Positions 3,378 through 34,110 of a stretch of 34,955 bases of DNA are shown piece by piece. Below the pieces are notes generated by a model. It was not told where the DNA came from. It did not search any database and was given only the letters and a program-made list of their open reading frames with translations. Position 1 is the stretch's first letter. Every line of letters starts with the position of its first letter. The translations under genes were made by a program, and so were the position numbers. Source of the DNA: Nitrosopumilaceae archaeon (GTDB lineage: Archaea; Thermoproteota; Nitrososphaeria; Nitrososphaerales; Nitrosopumilaceae); the NCBI GenBank assembly GCA_021296165.1, contig JAGWAW010000003.1:1-34955 (forward strand). Direction: 5' to 3'.

Positions 3378-4325
3378 GTGACATCGTACGGCCTGGGGTC
3401 CCTGCTGGGTGTGGACGAGTTGATGCGGTGCGCCTCGCAGGTGGGTCCGGACGACTCCGTATGGATACCGGAGACCTGGGGGATGGAGTGTATGGGGATG
3501 ATCTCGGCAGTCGCCCAGAAGAGTCCCTGCCGCCGCATAGGCTCCTCCATACTGAACGTGTACTCCCGGAGCCCGGCCGCCCTGGCCATGGGGGCGGCCA
3601 CACTGGACGCGCTCTCGGGCGGGCGGTTCGTGCTGGGCCTGGGGGCCAGCAGCCCGGCCATAGTCAGGGGACTGCACGGGATGGAATACGAGAGGCCCGT
3701 GCGGCGCGTCCGCGAGTGCGTTGAGATTGTGCGGATGGCGCTGGAGGGGAGGCGCATCGACTATGCCGGGGAGGTGTACGATCTCCGGGGGTTCTCCCTG
3801 CTGGTGAAACCGCCCCGGGGAAGTGTCCCGGTGTATCTGGCGGCGGTAAACCCCAGGATGATGCGGCTGGCCTGGGAGGTGGCCGACGGCGTCATACTGT
3901 ATTTGAGGCCGCCCGGGGAGATCCGTGATACGCTGCGTACCATGGGGGGCCGCCGCATCGGCGTGGCCTGCCAGATAATCACGGCCGTCTCCCGCGACGC
4001 GCCGGCCGCGTACGAGCGGGCACGCCGCACACTGGCATTCTATGTGTCGGTGGGTGCCATATACAGGGAGTTTCTGGCGGCGCACGGCTACGCCGAGCAG
4101 ACCCGCTCCATACACTCCGAGTACCGGAGGGGTGGCCTGGGGGCCGCCCGCCGGGCCGTGCCCGACACGATGCTCCACTCCCTGACCGCCTGCGGCACCC
4201 CCAGGGAGTGCGCCGCCACAATAGAGGAGTTTTCGGCGGCGGGCGTCGACGAACCCATACTGCAGTTCAACCCGGTGGGCGACGTCTCCGAGTCGTTCGA
4301 GCTACTCAGGAGGGTGTCGGGCTGA
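3378..4325 (+). CDS. luciferase-like monooxygenase family / F420-dependent oxidoreductase
   Basis: LLM-family layout: N-terminal (V)TSYGLGS...DSVWIPETW, then GGRFVLGLGAS, then C-terminal GTPRECAATIEEFSAAGVDEPILQF. The track ORF starts at 3066, inside aRF1. It is trimmed to GTG 3378 on homology and TATA spacing; ATG 3423 is an alternative. Confidence 0.8.
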   Translation: MTSYGLGSLLGVDELMRCASQVGPDDSVWIPETWGMECMGMISAVAQKSPCRRIGSSILNVYSRSPAALAMGAATLDALSGGRFVLGLGASSPAIVRGLHGMEYERPVRRVRECVEIVRMALEGRRIDYAGEVYDLRGFSLLVKPPRGSVPVYLAAVNPRMMRLAWEVADGVILYLRPPGEIRDTLRTMGGRRIGVACQIITAVSRDAPAAYERARRTLAFYVSVGAIYREFLAAHGYAEQTRSIHSEYRRGGLGAARRAVPDTMLHSLTACGTPRECAATIEEFSAAGVDEPILQFNPVGDVSESFELLRRVSG

Positions 4326-12295: not shown

Positions 12296-15200
12296 CTATA
12301 TCTGGTAGGGCTTTATCGGATCCCTGGTGGTCTCGTGGGTTCTCATCCACTCCAGGGTGTTCACGAACGCCTCGGCCAGCTCGATGGTAGTAAGCACGGG
12401 GATGCCCAGCTCCAGCGCCTTGCGGCGTATCTGGTACTCGTCCTCCAGCATCCCGATGTACTTTTCCAGGGTGGCGGTGCTGGGTATGTTTATGATGAAG
12501 TCTATCTTTCTCTGGTATAGCATGTCCGCTATGTTGGGCTGCCGCTCGGGCTCGGATATCTTGTGGACGACCTTGACGGCGCCCAGCCTCTCCTCCAGGA
12601 ACTCGGCGGTGTGTTCTGTGGCCAGTATGTTGAAGCCCATCCCGCCCAGCTTTGCCACGGTGGCCAGCAGCTTCTCCTTGTTGGGCGTGCCGCCCACGGT
12701 GATCAGGGCCGACCCGCCGGAGGGCAGGTTGTACCCCACGGCGCCCAAGGCCTTGGAGAGGGCGTCATAGAAGCTCTCCCCAAAGCAGGCCGCCTCGCCG
12801 GTGGAGTGCATCTCCACGCCCAGCGTCAGGTCTGCACCTTCCAGCTGCATGAACGAGAACTGGGGCACCTTTATCCCCACGGTGCGTATATCGCGCCATC
12901 TGTCGTGGGGAATGGCGGGCAGCCTGCCGCCCATGACGGCGCGGGACGCCAGCGATATGAGGTTCATGCCAACCAGTTTCGAGACGAACGGCATGGAGCG
13001 GGATGCCCGTATGTTCAGCTCTATCACGTACACCTCGCCGTCATGCACCAGAAACTGCAGGTTGAAGGGCCCCCGGATGCGGAAGGTGCGGGCTATCTTG
13101 ATGGTGTACTCGGTGATGGTCTGTACAGTCATGTTGCCCAGCCTCCAGGGCGGGATGCACATCATCGCGTCGCCCGAGTGCACCCCGGCGCTGTCTATGT
13201 GCTCCACCACCGCCCCTATGACCACGTTGTCGCCGTCGGAGACGCCGTCCACGTCCACCTCCAGCGAGTTGAGCATGAACTTTGATATCACGACGGGGTG
13301 GTCCGGCGAGACCCGGGTGGCCTTCTGGGCGTACGTCCTCAGCTCGTCGGCGGACCAGACCACCTTCATGGCGGCGCCTGACAGGACGTAGGAGGGGCGC
13401 ACCAGGACCGGAAACCCCACCTCGCGCGCGAACGTGCGGGCCTCCTCCAGGCTGGAGAACGCCTGCCAGCGCGGCTGCCGTATGTGCAGCTTGTCCAGCT
13501 CGGCGCTGAACTTTGAGCGGTCCTCGGCCCGGTCCACGTCCGACGCCGACGTGCCCAGTATGGGCACGCCGCTGGCTGCCAGGGACGGCGTCAGGTTGTT
13601 GGCCGCCTGCCCTCCCACGCTGGTCACCACCCCGCGCGGATTCTCGAACTCCACTATGTCCATGACGCGCTCGTGGGTCAGCTCCTCAAAGTAGAGGCGG
13701 TTGCATATGTCGTAGTCGGTAGAGACTGTCTCCGGGTTGCAGTTGACCACCGCAACGGGCATGCGGCCGTGCTCCCGTATGCCCCAGACCATGTTTACCG
13801 TGCCCCAGTCAAACTCCACGCTGCTTCCTATGCGGTAGGGGCCGGCGCCCAGCACAATGGCGGCGCGCTCCCCGGCCGGCACTACAATGTCGTGGTCTGC
13901 GCCCCCGTATGTCATGTACAGGTAGTTGGTCGCCGCCGGCCACTCGGCGGCCAGCGAGTCTATCTGCTTCACTTGGGGCAGTATGCCCATGCCCTTGCGG
14001 GTGGCGCGTATCTGGGCTGCGGTCCTGCCGCAGGCCCGGCCTATCTGGACATCCGAGAAGCCGGCGGCCTTGGCGTCCCGCATAGTGGAGCGGTCCGGCC
14101 CGCCCTTCAGGCGGCCTGCCATCTCCACCATGTTTCGTATCTTCTCCACGAACCAGGGGTCTATGGAGGACAGGCGGCTGATCCGGGCCGTGTCAAACCC
14201 GCGCGAGACGGCCGCGGCGACGTTGTACAGTATCGTATCGTCAAAGTGTATCAGCCTCTCCTCCAGCTCCTCCTCGGTGTATCGCTCGGGGCCGAACCGG
14301 TTCAGGATCAGCCCGTCCATTCCCGAGTCCAGCATGCGGATGGCCTTTTGGAGCGACTCCTCAAAGGTGCGTCCCACGCCCATCACCTCGCCCACCGACT
14401 TCATGGTGGGTCCCAGCTTTCTCTCCACCAGGTCAAACTTGGCAAAGTCCCACCGGGGGTGCTTGCACACCACGTAGTCCAGCGACGGCTCAAAGCACGC
14501 GGTGGTGCTCTTGGTTATGGTGTTGGTCAGCTCGTGCAGGTCGTACCCCAGGCCTATCTTGGCGGACATGTATGCCAGCGGGTATCCGGTGGCCTTGCTG
14601 GCCAGTGCCGAGGAGCGCGACAGCCGGGGGTTCATCTCGATGGCCACGTACTTTTCTGACGCGGTGTCCAGCGCGAACTGGACGTTGCACTCCCCCACTA
14701 TACCCACGTGCGAGGCGGCCCGGAGGCTGGCCGAGCGCAGCATGTGGTATTCGCGGTTGTTGATGGTCTGGGAGGGTGCCACCACTATGTTGTCGCCGGT
14801 GTGCACCTTCATGGCGAGGACGTTCTCCATGTTGCACACGATGACGCCGTTGCCCGCCGTGTCCCGCATCACCTCGTACTCTATCTGCTTCCACCCGCCG
14901 ATGTACTCCTCTATGAGCACCTGGCCTACCATGCTCGCCTTTATGCCGCGCTCCACTATCTCGTGTAGCTCCAACTCGTTGCGGGCGACTCCGCCGCCCT
15001 TGCCGCCCAGAGTATATGCCACCCGCACTATCACAGGATAGCCCAGCCTCCTGGCTGTCCGCTTGGCGGTCTCAAAGTCGGTGACCGTATCGCTGGGGAG
15101 GACGGGCACCCCGCACCTTCCCATGGCGTCCTTGAAGAGCTGGCGGTCCTCGGCCGTGCGGATGCCTCCTATGTCTGTACCCAGCACCTGCACCCCGTAC

Positions 15201-15454
15201 TTTTCCAGTATGCCACCCTCGGCCAGTCCGACCCCGCAGTTGAGGGCCGTCTGGCCTCCGTACGAGAGCATTATGGCGTCGGGCCGCTCCTTCTCTATTA
15301 CGGACTCTACGTACTGGGGGGTTACGGGCAGCAGATACACGCGATCGGCAAACCTGGTGTCGGTCTGTATGGTGGCCACGTTGGGGTTTATCAGGACGCT
15401 TCTCAGGCCGTCCTCCCGTATGGCCTTGAGGCATTGGCTACCGGAGTAGTCAAA
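12296..15454 (-). CDS. carB: carbamoyl-phosphate synthase large subunit, main body (from FDYSG onward)
   Basis: The reading frame is uninterrupted from TTT 15454 to the stop at 12296 (1052 codons). It shows both ATP-grasp halves (FDYSGSQCLKA...NPNVATIQTD and EFDWGTVNMV...NCNPETVSTD) and the MGS-like C-terminus. The track ORF begins at internal GTG 15379 only because the true 5' segment is in another frame. Confidence 0.95.
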   Translation of the reverse strand, partial: FDYSGSQCLKAIREDGLRSVLINPNVATIQTDTRFADRVYLLPVTPQYVESVIEKERPDAIMLSYGGQTALNCGVGLAEGGILEKYGVQVLGTDIGGIRTAEDRQLFKDAMGRCGVPVLPSDTVTDFETAKRTARRLGYPVIVRVAYTLGGKGGGVARNELELHEIVERGIKASMVGQVLIEEYIGGWKQIEYEVMRDTAGNGVIVCNMENVLAMKVHTGDNIVVAPSQTINNREYHMLRSASLRAASHVGIVGECNVQFALDTASEKYVAIEMNPRLSRSSALASKATGYPLAYMSAKIGLGYDLHELTNTITKSTTACFEPSLDYVVCKHPRWDFAKFDLVERKLGPTMKSVGEVMGVGRTFEESLQKAIRMLDSGMDGLILNRFGPERYTEEELEERLIHFDDTILYNVAAAVSRGFDTARISRLSSIDPWFVEKIRNMVEMAGRLKGGPDRSTMRDAKAAGFSDVQIGRACGRTAAQIRATRKGMGILPQVKQIDSLAAEWPAATNYLYMTYGGADHDIVVPAGERAAIVLGAGPYRIGSSVEFDWGTVNMVWGIREHGRMPVAVVNCNPETVSTDYDICNRLYFEELTHERVMDIVEFENPRGVVTSVGGQAANNLTPSLAASGVPILGTSASDVDRAEDRSKFSAELDKLHIRQPRWQAFSSLEEARTFAREVGFPVLVRPSYVLSGAAMKVVWSADELRTYAQKATRVSPDHPVVISKFMLNSLEVDVDGVSDGDNVVIGAVVEHIDSAGVHSGDAMMCIPPWRLGNMTVQTITEYTIKIARTFRIRGPFNLQFLVHDGEVYVIELNIRASRSMPFVSKLVGMNLISLASRAVMGGRLPAIPHDRWRDIRTVGIKVPQFSFMQLEGADLTLGVEMHSTGEAACFGESFYDALSKALGAVGYNLPSGGSALITVGGTPNKEKLLATVAKLGGMGFNILATEHTAEFLEERLGAVKVVHKISEPERQPNIADMLYQRKIDFIINIPSTATLEKYIGMLEDEYQIRRKALELGIPVLTTIELAEAFVNTLEWMRTHETTRDPIKPYQI

Positions 15455-15476
15455 CTGGCGGCCGCTTTGGGCGGCT
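15455..15476 (-). other. 22-nt intervening sequence inside carB (candidate BHB-type mRNA intron; alternatively a disabling insertion)
   Basis: The minus strand reads AGCCGCCCAAAGCGGCCGCCAG, lying between the GAA (E) and TTT (F) codons of the invariant EFDYSG motif. Its length is not a multiple of 3. It forms the hairpin GCCGC-CCAAA-GCGGC, flanked by the 4-bp helix GGCG/CGCC and an AAA bulge. Confidence 0.5.
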
Positions 15477-15533
15477 TTCGCCGGCTTCTCCGATCTTTAT
15501 TGCCCCACTTCCCAGGACCAGTATATTCTTCAG
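15477..15533 (-). CDS. carB: carB 5' coding segment (19 codons, LKNILVLGSGAIKIGEAGE)
   Basis: This matches the canonical CarB N-terminus (ILVLGSGPIxIGQAxE) but is in a different frame from the main body. The open stretch has no ATG/GTG/TTG; CTG 15533-15531 lies 4 nt after the carA stop codon. Confidence 0.6.
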
Positions 15534-15537
15534 CGAC

Positions 15538-16662
15538 TCACTTCGCGGCAGGCCGGGGGTCCTCCATTATCCTGTGCAGCTCCTCGAAGACGAATCCGCA
15601 GTCGTGGGGGCCTGGGGAGGCCTCCGGGTGGAACTGCACCGCTATGCAGGGGCGCGTCCTGTGCCGGATTCCTTCGACGGTGTCGTCGTCGGTGTTGGTA
15701 AACCACAAGTCAAATTCCGAGTTGGCCAGCGAGTCGGGGCTGATGGCATAGCCGTGGTTCTGGCTGGTCACGTATACCATCCCGGTGGATACGTCCAGAC
15801 AGGACTTGTTCTGGCCCCGATGACCGTACTTGAGCTTGTATGTCTGGGCGTTGCCAGCCAGGGCAATTATCTGCGCCCCCAAACATATGCCCAGCAGGGG
15901 CACGCCACGATCCATGAGGGCGCGGGCCGTGCGGATGGTCTCGGTGCAGTGCTGGGGGTCCCCGGGGCCGTTGCTTATGACCACGCCGGCGGGCTCGTAC
16001 CCCATGACGTCGGATATGTCCGAGTCGTGGGGGACTCTGACGGCCCGGTATCCCATGCGGGTAACGTGCCGCAGTATGGCGTTCTTGGCGCCCACGTCCA
16101 GCACCACTACGTTGCGCCCCTGGCCGTACCCGGAGTGGTCGGCGGCCGAGGCGCCCTCCACCAGCCGTTCTGTGTCGTACCGGGGGGCCGAGGCCAGCCT
16201 CTCGGCAAGATCCTCCACATCCACGGGGGACTCAGAGACGGCCAAGGCGGACATCTGGACTCCCTGGCTCCGGAGCCTCTTTGTAAGCGAGCGCGTGTCC
16301 ACGCCGGTGATGCCGGATATGCCCTGCGAATACATCCACTCGTCCAGAGTCATGGCCAGGTTCCAATGGCTGGCCGTATAAGAGAGATCGTGCACCACCA
16401 GGCCACGTACCTGTATGCGGCCGGACTCAAAGTGGGCGGGGATGCCATCGGGATCAGTCTCGGCGGGGTCGGGCACGCCATAGTTGCCCACCAGCGGATA
16501 TGTGATGGACAGTATCTGGCCCCCGTATGAGGGATCGGTCAGTGTCTCGGCGTACCCCACCATGCCGGTATTGAAGACTGCCTCGCCAAACGCCATTCCG
16601 GGATGGCCAAACCCCTCGCCCTCCATGACGGTTCCGTCGTCAAGGAGCAGTGTGGCATACAT
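15538..16662 (-). CDS. carA: carbamoyl-phosphate synthase small (glutamine amidotransferase) subunit
   Basis: 374 aa. N-terminal CPSase small-chain domain (GEAVFNTGMVGYAETLTDPSYGGQI) and class I GATase triad context (LLGICLGAQI ... VQFHPE). Confidence 0.95.
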   Translation of the reverse strand: MYATLLLDDGTVMEGEGFGHPGMAFGEAVFNTGMVGYAETLTDPSYGGQILSITYPLVGNYGVPDPAETDPDGIPAHFESGRIQVRGLVVHDLSYTASHWNLAMTLDEWMYSQGISGITGVDTRSLTKRLRSQGVQMSALAVSESPVDVEDLAERLASAPRYDTERLVEGASAADHSGYGQGRNVVVLDVGAKNAILRHVTRMGYRAVRVPHDSDISDVMGYEPAGVVISNGPGDPQHCTETIRTARALMDRGVPLLGICLGAQIIALAGNAQTYKLKYGHRGQNKSCLDVSTGMVYVTSQNHGYAISPDSLANSEFDLWFTNTDDDTVEGIRHRTRPCIAVQFHPEASPGPHDCGFVFEELHRIMEDPRPAAK

Positions 16663-33576: not shown

Positions 33577-34110
33577 GTGAAGGGCAGCCTGGTGGAGAAC
33601 CGCATCATAGTGTGGAACGTGGAGGACTCCCGGAGGCTCTTCGGGGAGGGCTACTACGGCAAGCCCATTGGAATAGCCAAGCCCAAACCCGACGAGATAG
33701 ACGCCCCGCTGGTGCTGGATCTCATAGAAGGGCTGTACCTGCTGGAGATCGGCAGGATAGCGGTCTATCAGGGCCGCCGACGGATGACCGCCGACCTACT
33801 GCTGGAGGTGTGCAGGGAGGAGTACCTCGACTTTGAGAAAAAGTACACCGTATACAGGACGTTCCGGGACATGGGATATGTGGTGAACCCGGGAATAAAA
33901 TTCGGGTGCGACTTTGCCGTGTATGAGAGGGGGCCGGGCATAGACCACGCCCCCTATCTGGTGCATGTGTACGGTTCCCGGGAACCGGTCACATCCACCG
34001 GTCTGGTGCTGGCCGGCCGGCTGGCCACCACCGTCAGGAAGCAGTTCATACTGGCTGTGCCCCGGAGTCGGGGAGTGGACTTTATGGCCCTGGACTGGTG
34101 GAGGGCCTAG
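33577..34110 (+). CDS. endA: tRNA-splicing (BHB) endonuclease
   Basis: (M)KGSLVENRIIVWNVEDSRRLFGEGYYGKP is the N-terminal domain. The catalytic domain contains YTVYRTFRDMGYVVNPGIKFGCDFAVYERGPGIDHAPYLVHV. It is 177 aa, a single-unit form. Confidence 0.9.
   Translation: MKGSLVENRIIVWNVEDSRRLFGEGYYGKPIGIAKPKPDEIDAPLVLDLIEGLYLLEIGRIAVYQGRRRMTADLLLEVCREEYLDFEKKYTVYRTFRDMGYVVNPGIKFGCDFAVYERGPGIDHAPYLVHVYGSREPVTSTGLVLAGRLATTVRKQFILAVPRSRGVDFMALDWWRA

What the first reader, a model, noticed from the sequence alone, without database searches (positions are those of the whole stretch)
15440..15494. carB is split inside the invariant EFDYSG motif by a 22-nt element that folds as a bulge-helix-bulge-like substrate: candidate archaeal mRNA intron
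On the minus strand the sequence reads ATC GGA GAA GCC GGC GAA (to 15477), then AGCCGCCCAAAGCGGCCGCCAG (15476-15455), then TTT GAC TAC TCC GGT (from 15454). The flanks encode ...ILVLGSGAIKIGEAGE and FDYSGSQCLKAIREDG..., which are colinear with the universally conserved CarB N-terminus (IGQAxEFDYSG) and leave no room for extra residues. The 22 nt put the two parts in different frames, and removing exactly these 22 nt restores E-F. The RNA can form a 4-bp helix GGCG (15482-15479) with CGCC (15460-15457). A 3-nt bulge AAA (15478-15476) follows on the 5' strand. Next comes a 5-bp helix GCCGC/GCGGC closed by a CCAAA loop. On the 3' strand, directly after CGCC, lies the unpaired AGU (15456-15454). 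An outer 7-bp helix AUCGGAG (15494-15488) with CUCCGGU (15446-15440) closes the whole structure. I recall the archaeal splicing endonuclease cutting after the 2nd nt of each 3-nt bulge. Applied here (AA|A and AG|U), that excises exactly the 22 nt demanded by protein homology. The remaining 1052 codons of carB and all of carA are intact, which argues against a decaying pseudogene. Protein-gene introns in Archaea are essentially known only from crenarchaeal cbf5, so a carB intron would be new. Caveats: the second bulge is not canonical, because there is no helix immediately 3' of AGU, and a competing AAGC/GUUU pairing exists. This would therefore be a relaxed BHB or BHL form. The insert also looks partly like diverged tandem copies of AAAGCCGSC, so origin by slippage is possible.
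Basis: partly seen in the sequence, partly recalled or inferred. Interest (0 to 1): 0.9.

Follow-up and report, generated by a model that had tools for sequence, protein, structure and literature searches.

The report
Conserved mini-intron inside archaeal carB mRNA
The 22-base interruption in this archaeon's carbamoyl-phosphate synthetase gene is real, recurs at the same codon boundary in more than 120 other archaeal contigs, and has the conserved RNA fold expected of an intron removed by the tRNA-splicing endonuclease, which would make carB only the second archaeal protein-coding sequence known to need splicing.

Summary
**Observation:** confirmed base for base. On the minus strand, 22 nt (15476-15455) split carB between GEAGE and FDYSG.

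**Not an artefact or pseudogene:**
- 126 loci carry a 16-34 nt insert at exactly this codon boundary. They comprise 114 metagenome contigs, MAGs and megabase-scale contigs of Nitrosopumilaceae and Nitrososphaerales.
- Insert lengths fall in all three frame classes, and every in-frame-length insert contains a stop.
- Close relatives lack the insert precisely (GAR|TTY).

**Conserved RNA design:**
- A 4-bp helix pairs exon GGCG with intron CGYN, followed by a 3-nt bulge A(A/G)|A and a 4-8 bp hairpin. All five hairpin pairs show compensatory changes.
- A six-pair exon-exon clamp is kept only through pairing-compatible synonymous codons.
- Cutting after the second bulge nucleotide, as in crenarchaeal cbf5 introns, gives exactly the junction that protein homology requires.
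- In two contigs (L159, L173) the same rule also fits a second mini-intron 23 nt upstream.

**Enzyme:** the window encodes a crenarchaeal-type EndA catalytic subunit with the loop lysine tied to relaxed substrates.

**Not shown:** no transcript evidence. The 3' site is relaxed, not a canonical bulge. Exon 1 has CTG where relatives have ATG or TTG.

**Verdict:** new member of a known kind, unreported in the searchable literature.

The parts
15538..16662 (-). carA (CPSase small subunit). It is intact, and its stop codon overlaps the start region of carB exon 1.
   Evidence: ORF list. Pfam CPSase_sm_chain and GATase.
15477..15551 (-). carB exon 1: 25 codons, (L/M)PRSESLKNILVLGSGAIKIGEAGE. The first codon, at the position homologous to ATG/TTG in relatives, is CTG (15551-15549).
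   Evidence: Translation. Exon-1 amino acids are conserved with free synonymous variation across 101 unique sequences.
15455..15476 (-). 22-nt mini-intron, A GCCGC CCAAA GCGGC CGCC AG.
   Evidence: Homologous inserts occur at the same site in 126 loci. The covariance model scores 72.2 bits, E = 6e-17.
12296..15454 (-). carB exon 2: 1052 codons plus the stop.
   Evidence: Pfam CPSase_L_D1/D2 hits on the spliced N-terminus.
15479..15482 (-). 5' strand of central helix H (exon GGCG). It pairs with 15457-15460.
   Evidence: In 87 unique sequences the pairs are G-C or G-U, with G*A in 12 at the outermost position. The Gly codon is GGC in 85 of 87 and GGT in 2 of 87 intron-bearing sequences, against GGA 27, GGC 26, GGT 15 and GGG 8 in intron-less carB.
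15457..15460 (-). 3' strand of central helix H (intron CGCC).
15476..15478 (-). 3-nt bulge AAA holding the predicted 5' splice site (AA|A), flanked by H and the intron hairpin.
   Evidence: The bulge is AAA or AGA in 82 of 87 unique sequences.
15461..15475 (-). Intron hairpin h': GCCGC / CCAAA / GCGGC.
   Evidence: All five pairs show changes on both sides across relatives. 97% of cells are paired, against 21-56% in slid controls.
15454..15456 (-). Predicted 3' splice site AG|U, 2 nt after helix H. It lies in an asymmetric internal loop, not a closed 3-nt bulge.
   Evidence: Across relatives this triplet is AAU, AUU, AGU or GUU.
15488..15493 (-). 5' strand of the exon-exon clamp helix (UCGGAG). 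It pairs with 15441-15446.
   Evidence: All six pairs form in 87 of 87 unique intron-bearing sequences, and only wobble-compatible synonymous changes occur. All six pairs are possible in only 5 of 76 intron-less carB.
15441..15446 (-). 3' strand of the exon-exon clamp helix (CUCCGG).
33577..34110 (+). EndA catalytic (alpha) subunit, the candidate enzyme. It is the crenarchaeal heterotetramer type and has the specificity loop.
   Evidence: Pfam tRNA_int_endo_N and tRNA_int_endo. The best solved relatives are A. pernix 3p1z_B (E = 2e-41), S. tokodaii 2cv8 and P. aerophilum 2zyz_B. K35 and K37 align with A. pernix K44 and R46.

Best explanation
The 22 nt are a pre-mRNA intron of the archaeal endonuclease type, in a relaxed bulge-helix-bulge form (HBh' / bulge-helix-loop).

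Proposed fold of the carAB transcript:
- The last exon-1 bases GGCG pair with CGCC near the 3' end of the insert, forming a 4-bp helix.
- On its inner side sit a 3-nt bulge (AAA) and a 5-bp intron hairpin.
- A six-pair exon-exon clamp (UCGGAG/CUCCGG) holds the two exon ends together.

Proposed reaction:
- The splicing endonuclease EndA cuts after the second bulge nucleotide (AA|A). It also cuts two nucleotides past the helix on the other strand (AG|U).
- An RNA ligase, presumably RtcB, joins ...GGC GAA to UUU GAC...
- This restores the invariant GEAGE-FDYSG sequence of CarB.
- Unspliced mRNA terminates a few codons into the insert.

What is shown and what is inferred:
- Shown: the sequence, its conservation, the structure and its covariation, the exon constraint, the match between the rule and the required junction, and the presence of a suitable EndA subunit.
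- Inferred: cleavage by EndA, ligation by RtcB, and translation of the spliced product.
For: **1. Same site, many lineages.**
- The genome scan found inserts at E|F in a Nitrosopumilaceae MAG (L008) and a Nitrososphaerales MAG (L012).
114 of those loci have the same design and 6 are chance matches.
- Megabase-scale contigs L201, L206, L207, L208, L209 (CP066694.1) and L210 also carry it.

**2. It cannot be translated through.**
- There are 75 unique introns of 16-34 nt, in length classes mod 3 of 28, 36 and 11.
- All 67 in-frame-length copies contain a stop.
- The median distance to a stop in the exon-1 frame is 2 codons.

**3. Structure.**
- All 5 inner-helix pairs show double-sided changes.
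- 97.1% of cells are paired, against 21-56% when partners are slid, and 0 of 500 shuffles reach the observed value.
- RNAalifold recovers the same helices on the model-fitted alignment A2.

**4. Exon constraint.**
- The Gly codon inside helix H is GGC in 100 of 101 exon-1 sequences, and the one inside the clamp is GGA in 96 of 101.
- A Gly codon 7 codons upstream of the clamp uses all four codons (35, 29, 28, 9).
- Intron-less carB uses all four Gly codons at the helix-H position.

**5. Exon 1 is under protein-level selection.** GSGAIKIGEAGE is nearly invariant across many synonymous variants.

**6. The cleavage rule fits.**
- The published rule is 'between the second and third residues of the bulges' (PMC2738675), and it yields exactly the homology-required junction.
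- It does so again at an independent second intron in L159 and L173.

**7. A suitable enzyme is encoded.**
- The window's EndA alpha subunit aligns with A. pernix EndA, including Lys44 of the specificity loop.
- That loop is what allows cleavage of relaxed and bulge-helix-loop substrates, including a C. symbiosum pre-tRNA mini-helix (PMC3241643).
- Thaumarchaeota are reported to have the (alpha-beta)2 type (PMC5829648).

**8. Precise intron-less alleles (GAR|TTY) exist.** They occur in lineages nested among intron-bearing ones and in CarB only about 7% diverged.
Against: - No RNA, cDNA or peptide evidence was available.
- The 3' splice site is not in a canonical 3-nt bulge. It lies in an asymmetric internal loop, so the motif fails the strict hBHBh' definition.
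- Exon 1 in the window and in 36 unique relatives has no ATG, GTG or TTG. CTG stands at the conserved start position, so how exon 1 is translated is itself uncertain.
- The EndA beta subunit and RtcB were not looked for.
- Five intron-bearing contigs could not be assigned to a taxon. For L100 and L128, CarB is closest to bacterial FCB/CPR-type sequences; L124 groups with them in a rough tree. L159 and L173 yielded no diagnostic neighbouring genes. If any of these are bacteria, EndA would not explain them.
- A second intact carB copy elsewhere in these genomes was not excluded.
Confidence: 0.85

Rival explanations
1. Programmed translational bypassing. The ribosome takes off at the Glu codon, skips the hairpin and lands at the Phe codon, as in phage T4 gene 60. 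The RNA is never cut.
For: A stable hairpin sits immediately after the last exon-1 codon, and stops lie within the gap.
Against: - There are no matching take-off and landing codons. The take-off codon is GAA or GAG, while the last intron codons are CAA, UAA, AAA, CAG, CAU or UAU.
- The codon after take-off is AGN or UGU, not a stop.
- Bypassing does not explain the 4-bp exon-intron helix, the fixed 3-nt bulge, the fixed 2-nt spacing after the helix, or the exon-exon clamp.
- Gap length varies from 16 to 34 nt.
Confidence: 0.04
2. The insert is removed from the RNA by something other than EndA, such as another structure-specific nuclease with a ligase, or an unknown editing activity.
For: The 3' site is non-canonical. 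Some carriers are of unresolved taxonomy.
Against: - The helix-bulge-hairpin geometry and the cut register are exactly those of EndA substrates, at two independent sites.
- A broad-specificity EndA subunit is encoded in the window.
- No other system is known that reads this motif.
Confidence: 0.06
3. carB is inactivated or shortened. The insert is a tolerated lesion, and either no CarB is made or an N-terminally truncated CarB starts downstream.
For: Gene callers and public annotation produce truncated or mis-framed proteins, for example P0001 MEKPAKAAQSGRQFDYSG... and the 1027-aa ORF starting at VATIQ.
Against: - 1052 downstream codons are intact here and in more than 100 lineages.
- Exon 1 stays open and nearly invariant in amino acids despite many synonymous changes.
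- The insert's structure is under selection.
- The first downstream start codons differ between lineages, with called lengths from 992 to 1044 aa. Using them would delete the conserved GSGxxxIG...EFDYSG N-terminal segment.
Confidence: 0.03
4. Sequencing, assembly or cloning artefact in this window.
For: None beyond the general prior for a frameshift in a GC-rich environmental sequence.
Against: The same element occurs in 126 independent loci from different projects and technologies, with lineage-specific sequences.
Confidence: 0.01

Closest known systems
Crenarchaeal cbf5 pre-mRNA intron (Watanabe 2002; Yoshinari 2006; Yokobori 2009, PMC2738675)
   Same: - A short intron inside a protein-coding sequence, with exon-intron boundaries folded into a mostly relaxed bulge-helix-bulge motif.
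- Predicted cuts lie between the 2nd and 3rd bulge residues.
- It disrupts an essential conserved motif, so it must be removed.
- It is linked to the hetero-oligomeric, broad-specificity EndA.
- Its distribution is patchy, with precise secondary losses.
   Different: - The host gene is carB, not cbf5.
- The host lineage is Nitrososphaeria (Thaumarchaeota), whose cbf5 is listed as intron-less.
- The intron is phase 0, between codons, rather than inside the catalytic Asp codon.
- It is very small (mostly 21-22 nt).
- It has an additional exon-exon clamp helix.
- Some lineages have two introns 23 nt apart.
[quoted passage not shown]
   Same: - One intact 3-nt bulge plus the 4-bp helix, with the second site in a loop.
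- Such substrates are cut only by EndA enzymes carrying the specificity loop and its lysine, which the window's EndA has.
- The size range is similar.
   Different: The substrate is an mRNA with no tRNA body. The exons encode protein, so the pairing partners are constrained by codons.
Haloferax volcanii HVO_1309 5'-UTR bulge-helix-bulge intron (PMC7714728)
   Same: EndA acts on an mRNA, and this was confirmed in vivo and in vitro in that case.
   Different: That intron lies in the untranslated leader of a euryarchaeon and does not interrupt a reading frame.
Ire1/RtcB unconventional splicing of HAC1/XBP1 mRNA in eukaryotes (own knowledge; RtcB role noted in PMC8718801)
   Same: Non-spliceosomal, protein-enzyme splicing of a small intron, in which removal changes the reading frame. 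Ligation is by RtcB-type ligase in metazoa.
   Different: The nuclease is Ire1, which recognises paired stem-loops rather than a bulge-helix-bulge. It is a stress-regulated cytoplasmic event.
Phage T4 gene 60 translational bypass (own knowledge)
   Same: A short untranslated gap with a hairpin and stops inside an essential coding sequence.
   Different: Bypass needs matched take-off and landing codons and leaves the RNA intact. Those features are absent here.

Membership tests
Archaeal EndA-type intron, strict bulge-helix-bulge (hBHBh') | Central helix of 4 bp | tested here: met
   The window has GGCG/CGCC, with 4 of 4 Watson-Crick pairs. Across all 123 pattern matches, 101 have 4 of 4 standard pairs and 17 have 3 of 4.
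Archaeal EndA-type intron, strict bulge-helix-bulge (hBHBh') | 3-nt bulge at the 5' splice site, closed by helices on both sides | tested here: met
   AAA lies between helix H and the intron hairpin. The bulge is AAA or AGA in 82 of 87 unique sequences.
Archaeal EndA-type intron, strict bulge-helix-bulge (hBHBh') | Second 3-nt bulge on the opposite strand, closed by an adjacent outer helix | tested here: not met
   The 3' site lies in an asymmetric internal loop. The 5' side is AAGCN and the 3' side is NN|UUYGAYUA. Only alternative weak pairs (AAGC/GUUU, or G13-Y66) close it. It is therefore not a strict-form member.
Archaeal EndA-type intron, relaxed form (HBh' / bulge-helix-loop) | One intact bulge flanked by the 4-bp helix and a second helix, with the other cut site at the symmetric distance (2 nt) from the 4-bp helix in a loop | tested here: met
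   The layout is H + bulge + h', with the second cut exactly 2 nt after H' in all 126 loci. It is the only register consistent with both the rule and the protein. The same layout is seen at the second intron of L159 and L173.
Archaeal EndA-type intron, relaxed form (HBh' / bulge-helix-loop) | Host encodes a broad-specificity EndA, either (alpha-beta)2 with the specificity loop and its lysine, or the epsilon2 type | tested here: inconclusive
   The alpha subunit is present at 33577-34110 and is closest to A. pernix, S. tokodaii and P. aerophilum alpha subunits. K35 and K37 align with K44 and R46. The beta subunit was not searched for. The (alpha-beta)2 assignment for Thaumarchaeota comes from PMC5829648.
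Archaeal EndA-type intron, relaxed form (HBh' / bulge-helix-loop) | Cleavage by EndA and exon ligation actually occur | not testable with these tools
   No transcriptome, cDNA or enzymology was available. A search for near-identical intact and interrupted protein pairs that could have betrayed transcripts found nothing closer than 93%.
cbf5 intron family of Crenarchaeota | Located in the cbf5 gene, within the catalytic Asp codon | tested here: not met
   The host gene is carB (Pfam CPSase_L_D1/D2). The element works like the cbf5 intron but is not a member of that family.
Translational bypass element (T4 gene 60 type) | Identical take-off and landing codons, with a stop directly after the take-off codon | tested here: not met
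   The take-off codon is GAR. The pre-landing triplets are CAA, UAA, AAA, CAG, CAU or UAU. The next codon is AGN or UGU.
Any curated RNA family (Rfam 15), including self-splicing group I/II introns | Match at the family gathering score | tested here: not met
   There were no Rfam matches in the whole window. At 16-34 nt the element is far too small for a ribozyme intron.

The most novel reading that the evidence does not exclude
The carB element may be the visible tip of a wider class of EndA-dependent mini-introns in the protein-coding genes of ammonia-oxidising and allied archaea.

- They would insert and are lost repeatedly. Two independent sites 23 nt apart occur in one gene, and presence or absence differs between lineages only about 7% diverged.
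- Splicing might also serve as a checkpoint that gates CPSase synthesis, and so arginine and pyrimidine supply. Unspliced mRNA yields only a peptide of about 25 residues.
- Together with CTG at the start position and the carA overlap, carB expression in these organisms could depend on several non-standard decoding steps.
Probability: 0.2. Interest if true: 0.92.

Novelty: new member of a known kind. Interest (0 to 1): 0.8.

Why it matters
**State of knowledge.** Introns inside archaeal coding sequences have so far rested on one gene, cbf5, in one phylum. A 2020 study still calls cbf5 the only other example (PMC7714728), and a 2025 paper cites only the cbf5 work (PMC12397907).

**What this adds.**
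- A second host gene, in a different and ecologically dominant lineage: marine, sediment, soil and sponge-associated ammonia oxidisers.
- Over a hundred natural sequence variants that already act as a mutational map of what the endonuclease needs in a non-tRNA substrate.
- A directly testable case, through junction reads, small circular intron RNA, in vitro EndA cleavage and one diagnostic tryptic peptide.

**Practical consequence.** Public gene calls for carB in these genomes are truncated or mis-framed. This can lead to wrong calls of pseudogenes or of arginine/pyrimidine auxotrophy in metabolic reconstructions.

**Evolutionary material.** The second intron and the frequent precise losses give material for studying how such introns arise and disappear.

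Tried and rejected
- **Generic motif scan of the window.** I scanned both strands for the motif (4-bp helix, 3-nt bulge, hairpin of at least 4 bp, partner strand plus 2 nt) combined with an 'excision joins two ORFs' filter. It gave 835 structural candidates on the + strand alone, and many on each strand passed the ORF filter. In 61% GC DNA spurious ORFs are long, so the scan was abandoned as uninformative. Whether other window genes carry such introns is therefore not answered.
- **Taxonomy of the divergent carriers.** The third protein search, meant to place L100, L124 and L128, returned only Bacteroidales partial proteins at 65-68% identity. Pfam and NCBIfam scans of neighbouring genes on L100, L128, L159 and L173 gave no domain-diagnostic markers. 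Only L188 was shown to be archaeal, through archaeal topoisomerase I.
- **Transcript-derived evidence.** I looked for intact proteins nearly identical to interrupted ones. The closest real pair is 93% identical.
- **Other RNA searches.** ARAGORN found no tRNAs and Rfam gave no matches in the window.
- **Slippage or tandem-duplication origin.** TRF finds only a weak 10-nt, 2.4-copy signal, and relatives show none, so this was rejected.
- **Chance matches.** Six pattern hits were inspected and discarded as chance matches or a normal carB read in another frame (L099, L118, L151, L152, L172, L193).
- **Papers not held.** Hallam 2006 (PMC1643844) and Marck & Grosjean 2003 (PMC1370505) are not in the library. 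An earlier mention of carB there cannot be excluded.
Full report
**1. The observation**

- Reading the minus strand and translating all three frames confirms the description base for base.
- Exon 1 (...KNILVLGSGAIKIGEAGE) ends at 15477. The 22 nt AGCCGCCCAAAGCGGCCGCCAG occupy 15476-15455. FDYSGSQCLKAIREDG... starts at 15454 in another frame and runs 1052 codons to the stop at 12296.
- Deleting the 22 nt gives one continuous open reading frame ending in a single stop. Its N-terminus matches Pfam CPSase_L_D1 and CPSase_L_D2. carA, immediately upstream, is intact.
The 22-mer occurs once in the window.
- There are no tRNA genes and no Rfam families in the window.
- Window GC is 61%. The nearest named relatives of its CarB are Cenarchaeum sp. 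MAGs.

**2. It is not private to this sequence**

- A scan of species-representative genomes with the spliced N-terminus returned two loci whose match was 21 nt too long. L008 is a Nitrosopumilaceae MAG at 78% amino-acid identity. L012 is a Nitrososphaerales MAG at 66%.
- Both have a 21-nt insert at the same E|F boundary with an in-frame TAA or TAG. The hairpin has changed on both strands: GCCGC/GCGGC becomes GUCGU/ACGAC and GCUGG/CCAGC.
- L001-L007 (Nitrosopumilus and relatives) read GGAGAATTTGAT with no insert.
Six hits are chance matches or an ordinary carB in another frame. The other 114 share one design.
- Together with genome-derived loci this gives 126 loci and 75 unique intron sequences.
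- The closest database proteins to the window's CarB (80-96% identity) are all truncated or start in the wrong frame and read through the insert (MEKPAKAAQSGRQFDYSG...). Their DNA carries the insert.
- Among the 120 best relatives of the Nitrososphaerales-type CarB, 101 start downstream of FDYSG.
- Megabase-scale contigs L207, L208, L209 (CP066694.1) and L210 carry the insert.

**3. It cannot be decoded as it stands**

- Insert length is 16-34 nt, with 21 nt in 60 loci and 22 nt in 40.
- Unique sequences fall into all three length classes mod 3 (28, 36 and 11).
- All 67 loci with an in-frame length contain a stop.
- Read in the exon-1 frame, unspliced RNA reaches a stop after a median of 2 codons.

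**4. Exon 1 is nevertheless maintained as coding sequence**

- GSGAIKIGEAGE is nearly invariant in 101 unique exon-1 sequences.
- Codons outside the RNA structure vary freely. For example, Gly at position -12 is GGT 35, GGA 29, GGC 28 and GGG 9.

**5. Anatomy and selection on the RNA**

From the 5' end, the design is as follows:
- An exon-exon clamp, UCGGAG/CUCCGG.
- A 5-nt strand, AAGCN.
- Helix H, formed by exon GGCG and intron CGYN.
- A 3-nt bulge, A(A/G)|A.
- A 4-8 bp intron hairpin with a variable loop.
- The H partner strand, then two nucleotides, then |U of the Phe codon.

Evidence of selection:
- In 87 unique sequences, hairpin pairs 2-4 switch between UA and CG, CG and UA, and GC and AU, with almost no unpaired cases. 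Partners slid by one position mostly fail to pair.
- A covariance model built from 19 sequences finds one hit per intron-bearing locus at 54-83 bits. The window scores 72.2 bits. Intron-less carB scores only 15-27 bits.
- On the resulting alignment, 97.1% of cells pair, against 21-56% in slid controls, and no shuffle of 500 reaches the observed covariation. All five hairpin pairs show changes on both sides. Helix H and the clamp change only on one side, through G-U.
- RNAalifold, run on the same model-fitted alignment, returns the clamp, the hairpin and three of the four H pairs.

The exon partners are frozen only where an intron is present:
- The Gly codon in H is GGC in 100 of 101 exon-1 sequences, and the Gly codon in the clamp is GGA in 96 of 101.
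- 76 intron-less carB genes use GGA 27, GGC 26, GGT 15 and GGG 8 at the H position, and only 5 of them can form all six clamp pairs.

**6. Mechanism**

- The arrangement is that of archaeal splicing-endonuclease substrates: a 4-bp helix, a 3-nt bulge on its inner side on the 5' strand, and the second cut at the symmetric distance on the 3' strand.
[quoted passage not shown] Applied here (AA|A and AG|U), it removes exactly 15476-15455.
- Protein homology alone would also allow both cuts to slide by -1 or -2, giving GAG instead of GAA. In most relatives the product is identical in every register.
- The 3' site is not a closed 3-nt bulge, so this is the relaxed HBh' / bulge-helix-loop class. Only EndA enzymes with the specificity loop cut that class (PMC5829648; PMC3241643).
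- The window encodes an EndA catalytic subunit at 33577-34110. Its best solved relatives are the alpha subunits of A. pernix, S. tokodaii and P. aerophilum. K35 and K37 align with A. pernix K44 and R46, and K44 is the residue required for relaxed substrates.
- The same A. pernix enzyme cuts a bulge-helix-loop mini-helix modelled on a C. symbiosum pre-tRNA.
- Ligation by RtcB is assumed from general knowledge and was not checked.

**7. An independent replicate of the rule**

- In L159 and L173 exon 1 is itself interrupted, by 20 nt and 32 nt, after the first base of the codon that follows GSGA. This lies 23 nt upstream of the main intron.
- Both inserts fold as a 4-nt helix strand with 3 of 4 pairs, a 3-nt bulge (AA|A, AC|U), a hairpin, the partner strand, and two further nucleotides.
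- The same cut rule restores GSGA(I/L)KIGEAGE.
- The thermodynamic signal of these short folds is weak (z between -0.6 and -1.0). The support comes from the register, not the energy.

**8. Distribution and history**

- A rough neighbour-joining tree of 250 exon-2 residues places intron-less Nitrosopumilus (L001-L007) inside a large intron-bearing clade.
- The closest intact and interrupted CarB pair is 93% identical.
- One insertion site with a homologous structure, plus scattered exact absences, fits an old gain followed by repeated precise losses, as argued for cbf5. Repeated gain is not excluded.
- L188 is archaeal, because it carries archaeal topoisomerase I.
- For L100 and L128, CarB is nearest to bacterial FCB/CPR-type sequences (63-67%); L124 groups with them in the tree. 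L128's CarA is marginally nearest to Aenigmatarchaeota and Methylarchaceae loci. The taxon of these three, and of L159 and L173, stays open.

**9. Rivals**

- Translational bypassing lacks matched take-off and landing codons. It also does not explain the helix, bulge, spacing and clamp constraints.
- A pseudogene or a truncated protein is contradicted by selection on exon 1, on 1052 downstream codons and on the RNA fold.
- An artefact is excluded by recurrence.
- A nuclease other than EndA cannot be excluded without experiments.

**10. Literature**

- Full-text searches for carB, Thaumarchaeota, Nitrosopumilus or Nitrososphaera together with bulge-helix-bulge or mRNA-intron terms found no report.
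- A 2020 study states that cbf5 is the only other bulge-helix-bulge intron in an mRNA, besides the 5'-UTR case it reports. A 2025 structural paper cites only the cbf5 work.
- The library is incomplete, and two relevant papers were not held.

**11. Verdict**

- The element is a new member of a known kind: an EndA-type pre-mRNA intron in a new gene and a new lineage.
- Open points are the relaxed 3' site, the CTG at the start position of exon 1, the untested beta subunit and ligase, and the unassigned divergent carriers.

Noticed in passing
window 15549-15551 (minus strand); also L008, L201, L205, L206, L210: Exon 1 of carB has no ATG, GTG or TTG. CTG stands exactly where intron-less relatives have TTG or ATG (MPK...). 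It lies 13 nt upstream of the overlapping carA stop. 36 unique intron-bearing sequences share this, and others have ATA, TTT or GCG at that position. A C5 or A6 run lies just upstream in the carA/carB overlap. CUG initiation, termination-reinitiation or a +1 shift from carA are all conceivable, and none was tested.
   Followed up: partly
L159 and L173 (minus strands), 23 nt upstream of the main carB intron: A second mini-intron of 20 nt and 32 nt interrupts exon 1 after the first base of the codon following GSGA. It has the same helix-bulge-hairpin design and leaves a 23-nt micro-exon.
   Followed up: partly
Public protein records P0001-P0023, P0121 (MYB30893.1 and others), P0048 (MCV0398657.1), P0039: carB of intron-bearing genomes is deposited as N-terminally truncated or mis-framed protein, named as a normal large subunit. 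For example, MEKPAKAAQSGRQFDYSG... reads through the intron in the exon-2 frame. This is a systematic annotation error.
   Followed up: yes
L100, L124, L128: L100 and L128 are intron-bearing carB genes whose protein is closest (63-67%) to bacterial FCB/CPR-type CarB; L124 groups with them in a rough tree. Their source organisms could not be identified. In L100, carB is preceded by a 353-aa ORF with a weak LAGLIDADG_3 match instead of carA.
   Followed up: partly
L112 (LUMV01001155.1), about 3650-3790: The carA C-terminal motif ...AVQFHPEASPGP runs directly into IGEAGE of carB exon 1. The end of carA and most of exon 1 are missing. This is either a natural deletion or an assembly join.
   Followed up: no
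L014 (DAIDAO010000052.1) and loci L031-L080: A record titled 'bacterium' (L014) groups with thaumarchaeal-type carB in the tree. Many Bacteroidota, Ignavibacteriota and Calditrichota CarB are about 58-60% identical to the thaumarchaeal protein, as close as many archaeal ones. This hints at a mislabelled bin and at old inter-domain transfer of carB.
   Followed up: no
window 15464-15487: TRF reports a weak 10-nt period (2.4 copies, 85% matches) spanning the exon-intron border. It appears to be a by-product of the GC-rich helix strands in this lineage and is absent from relatives.
   Followed up: yes
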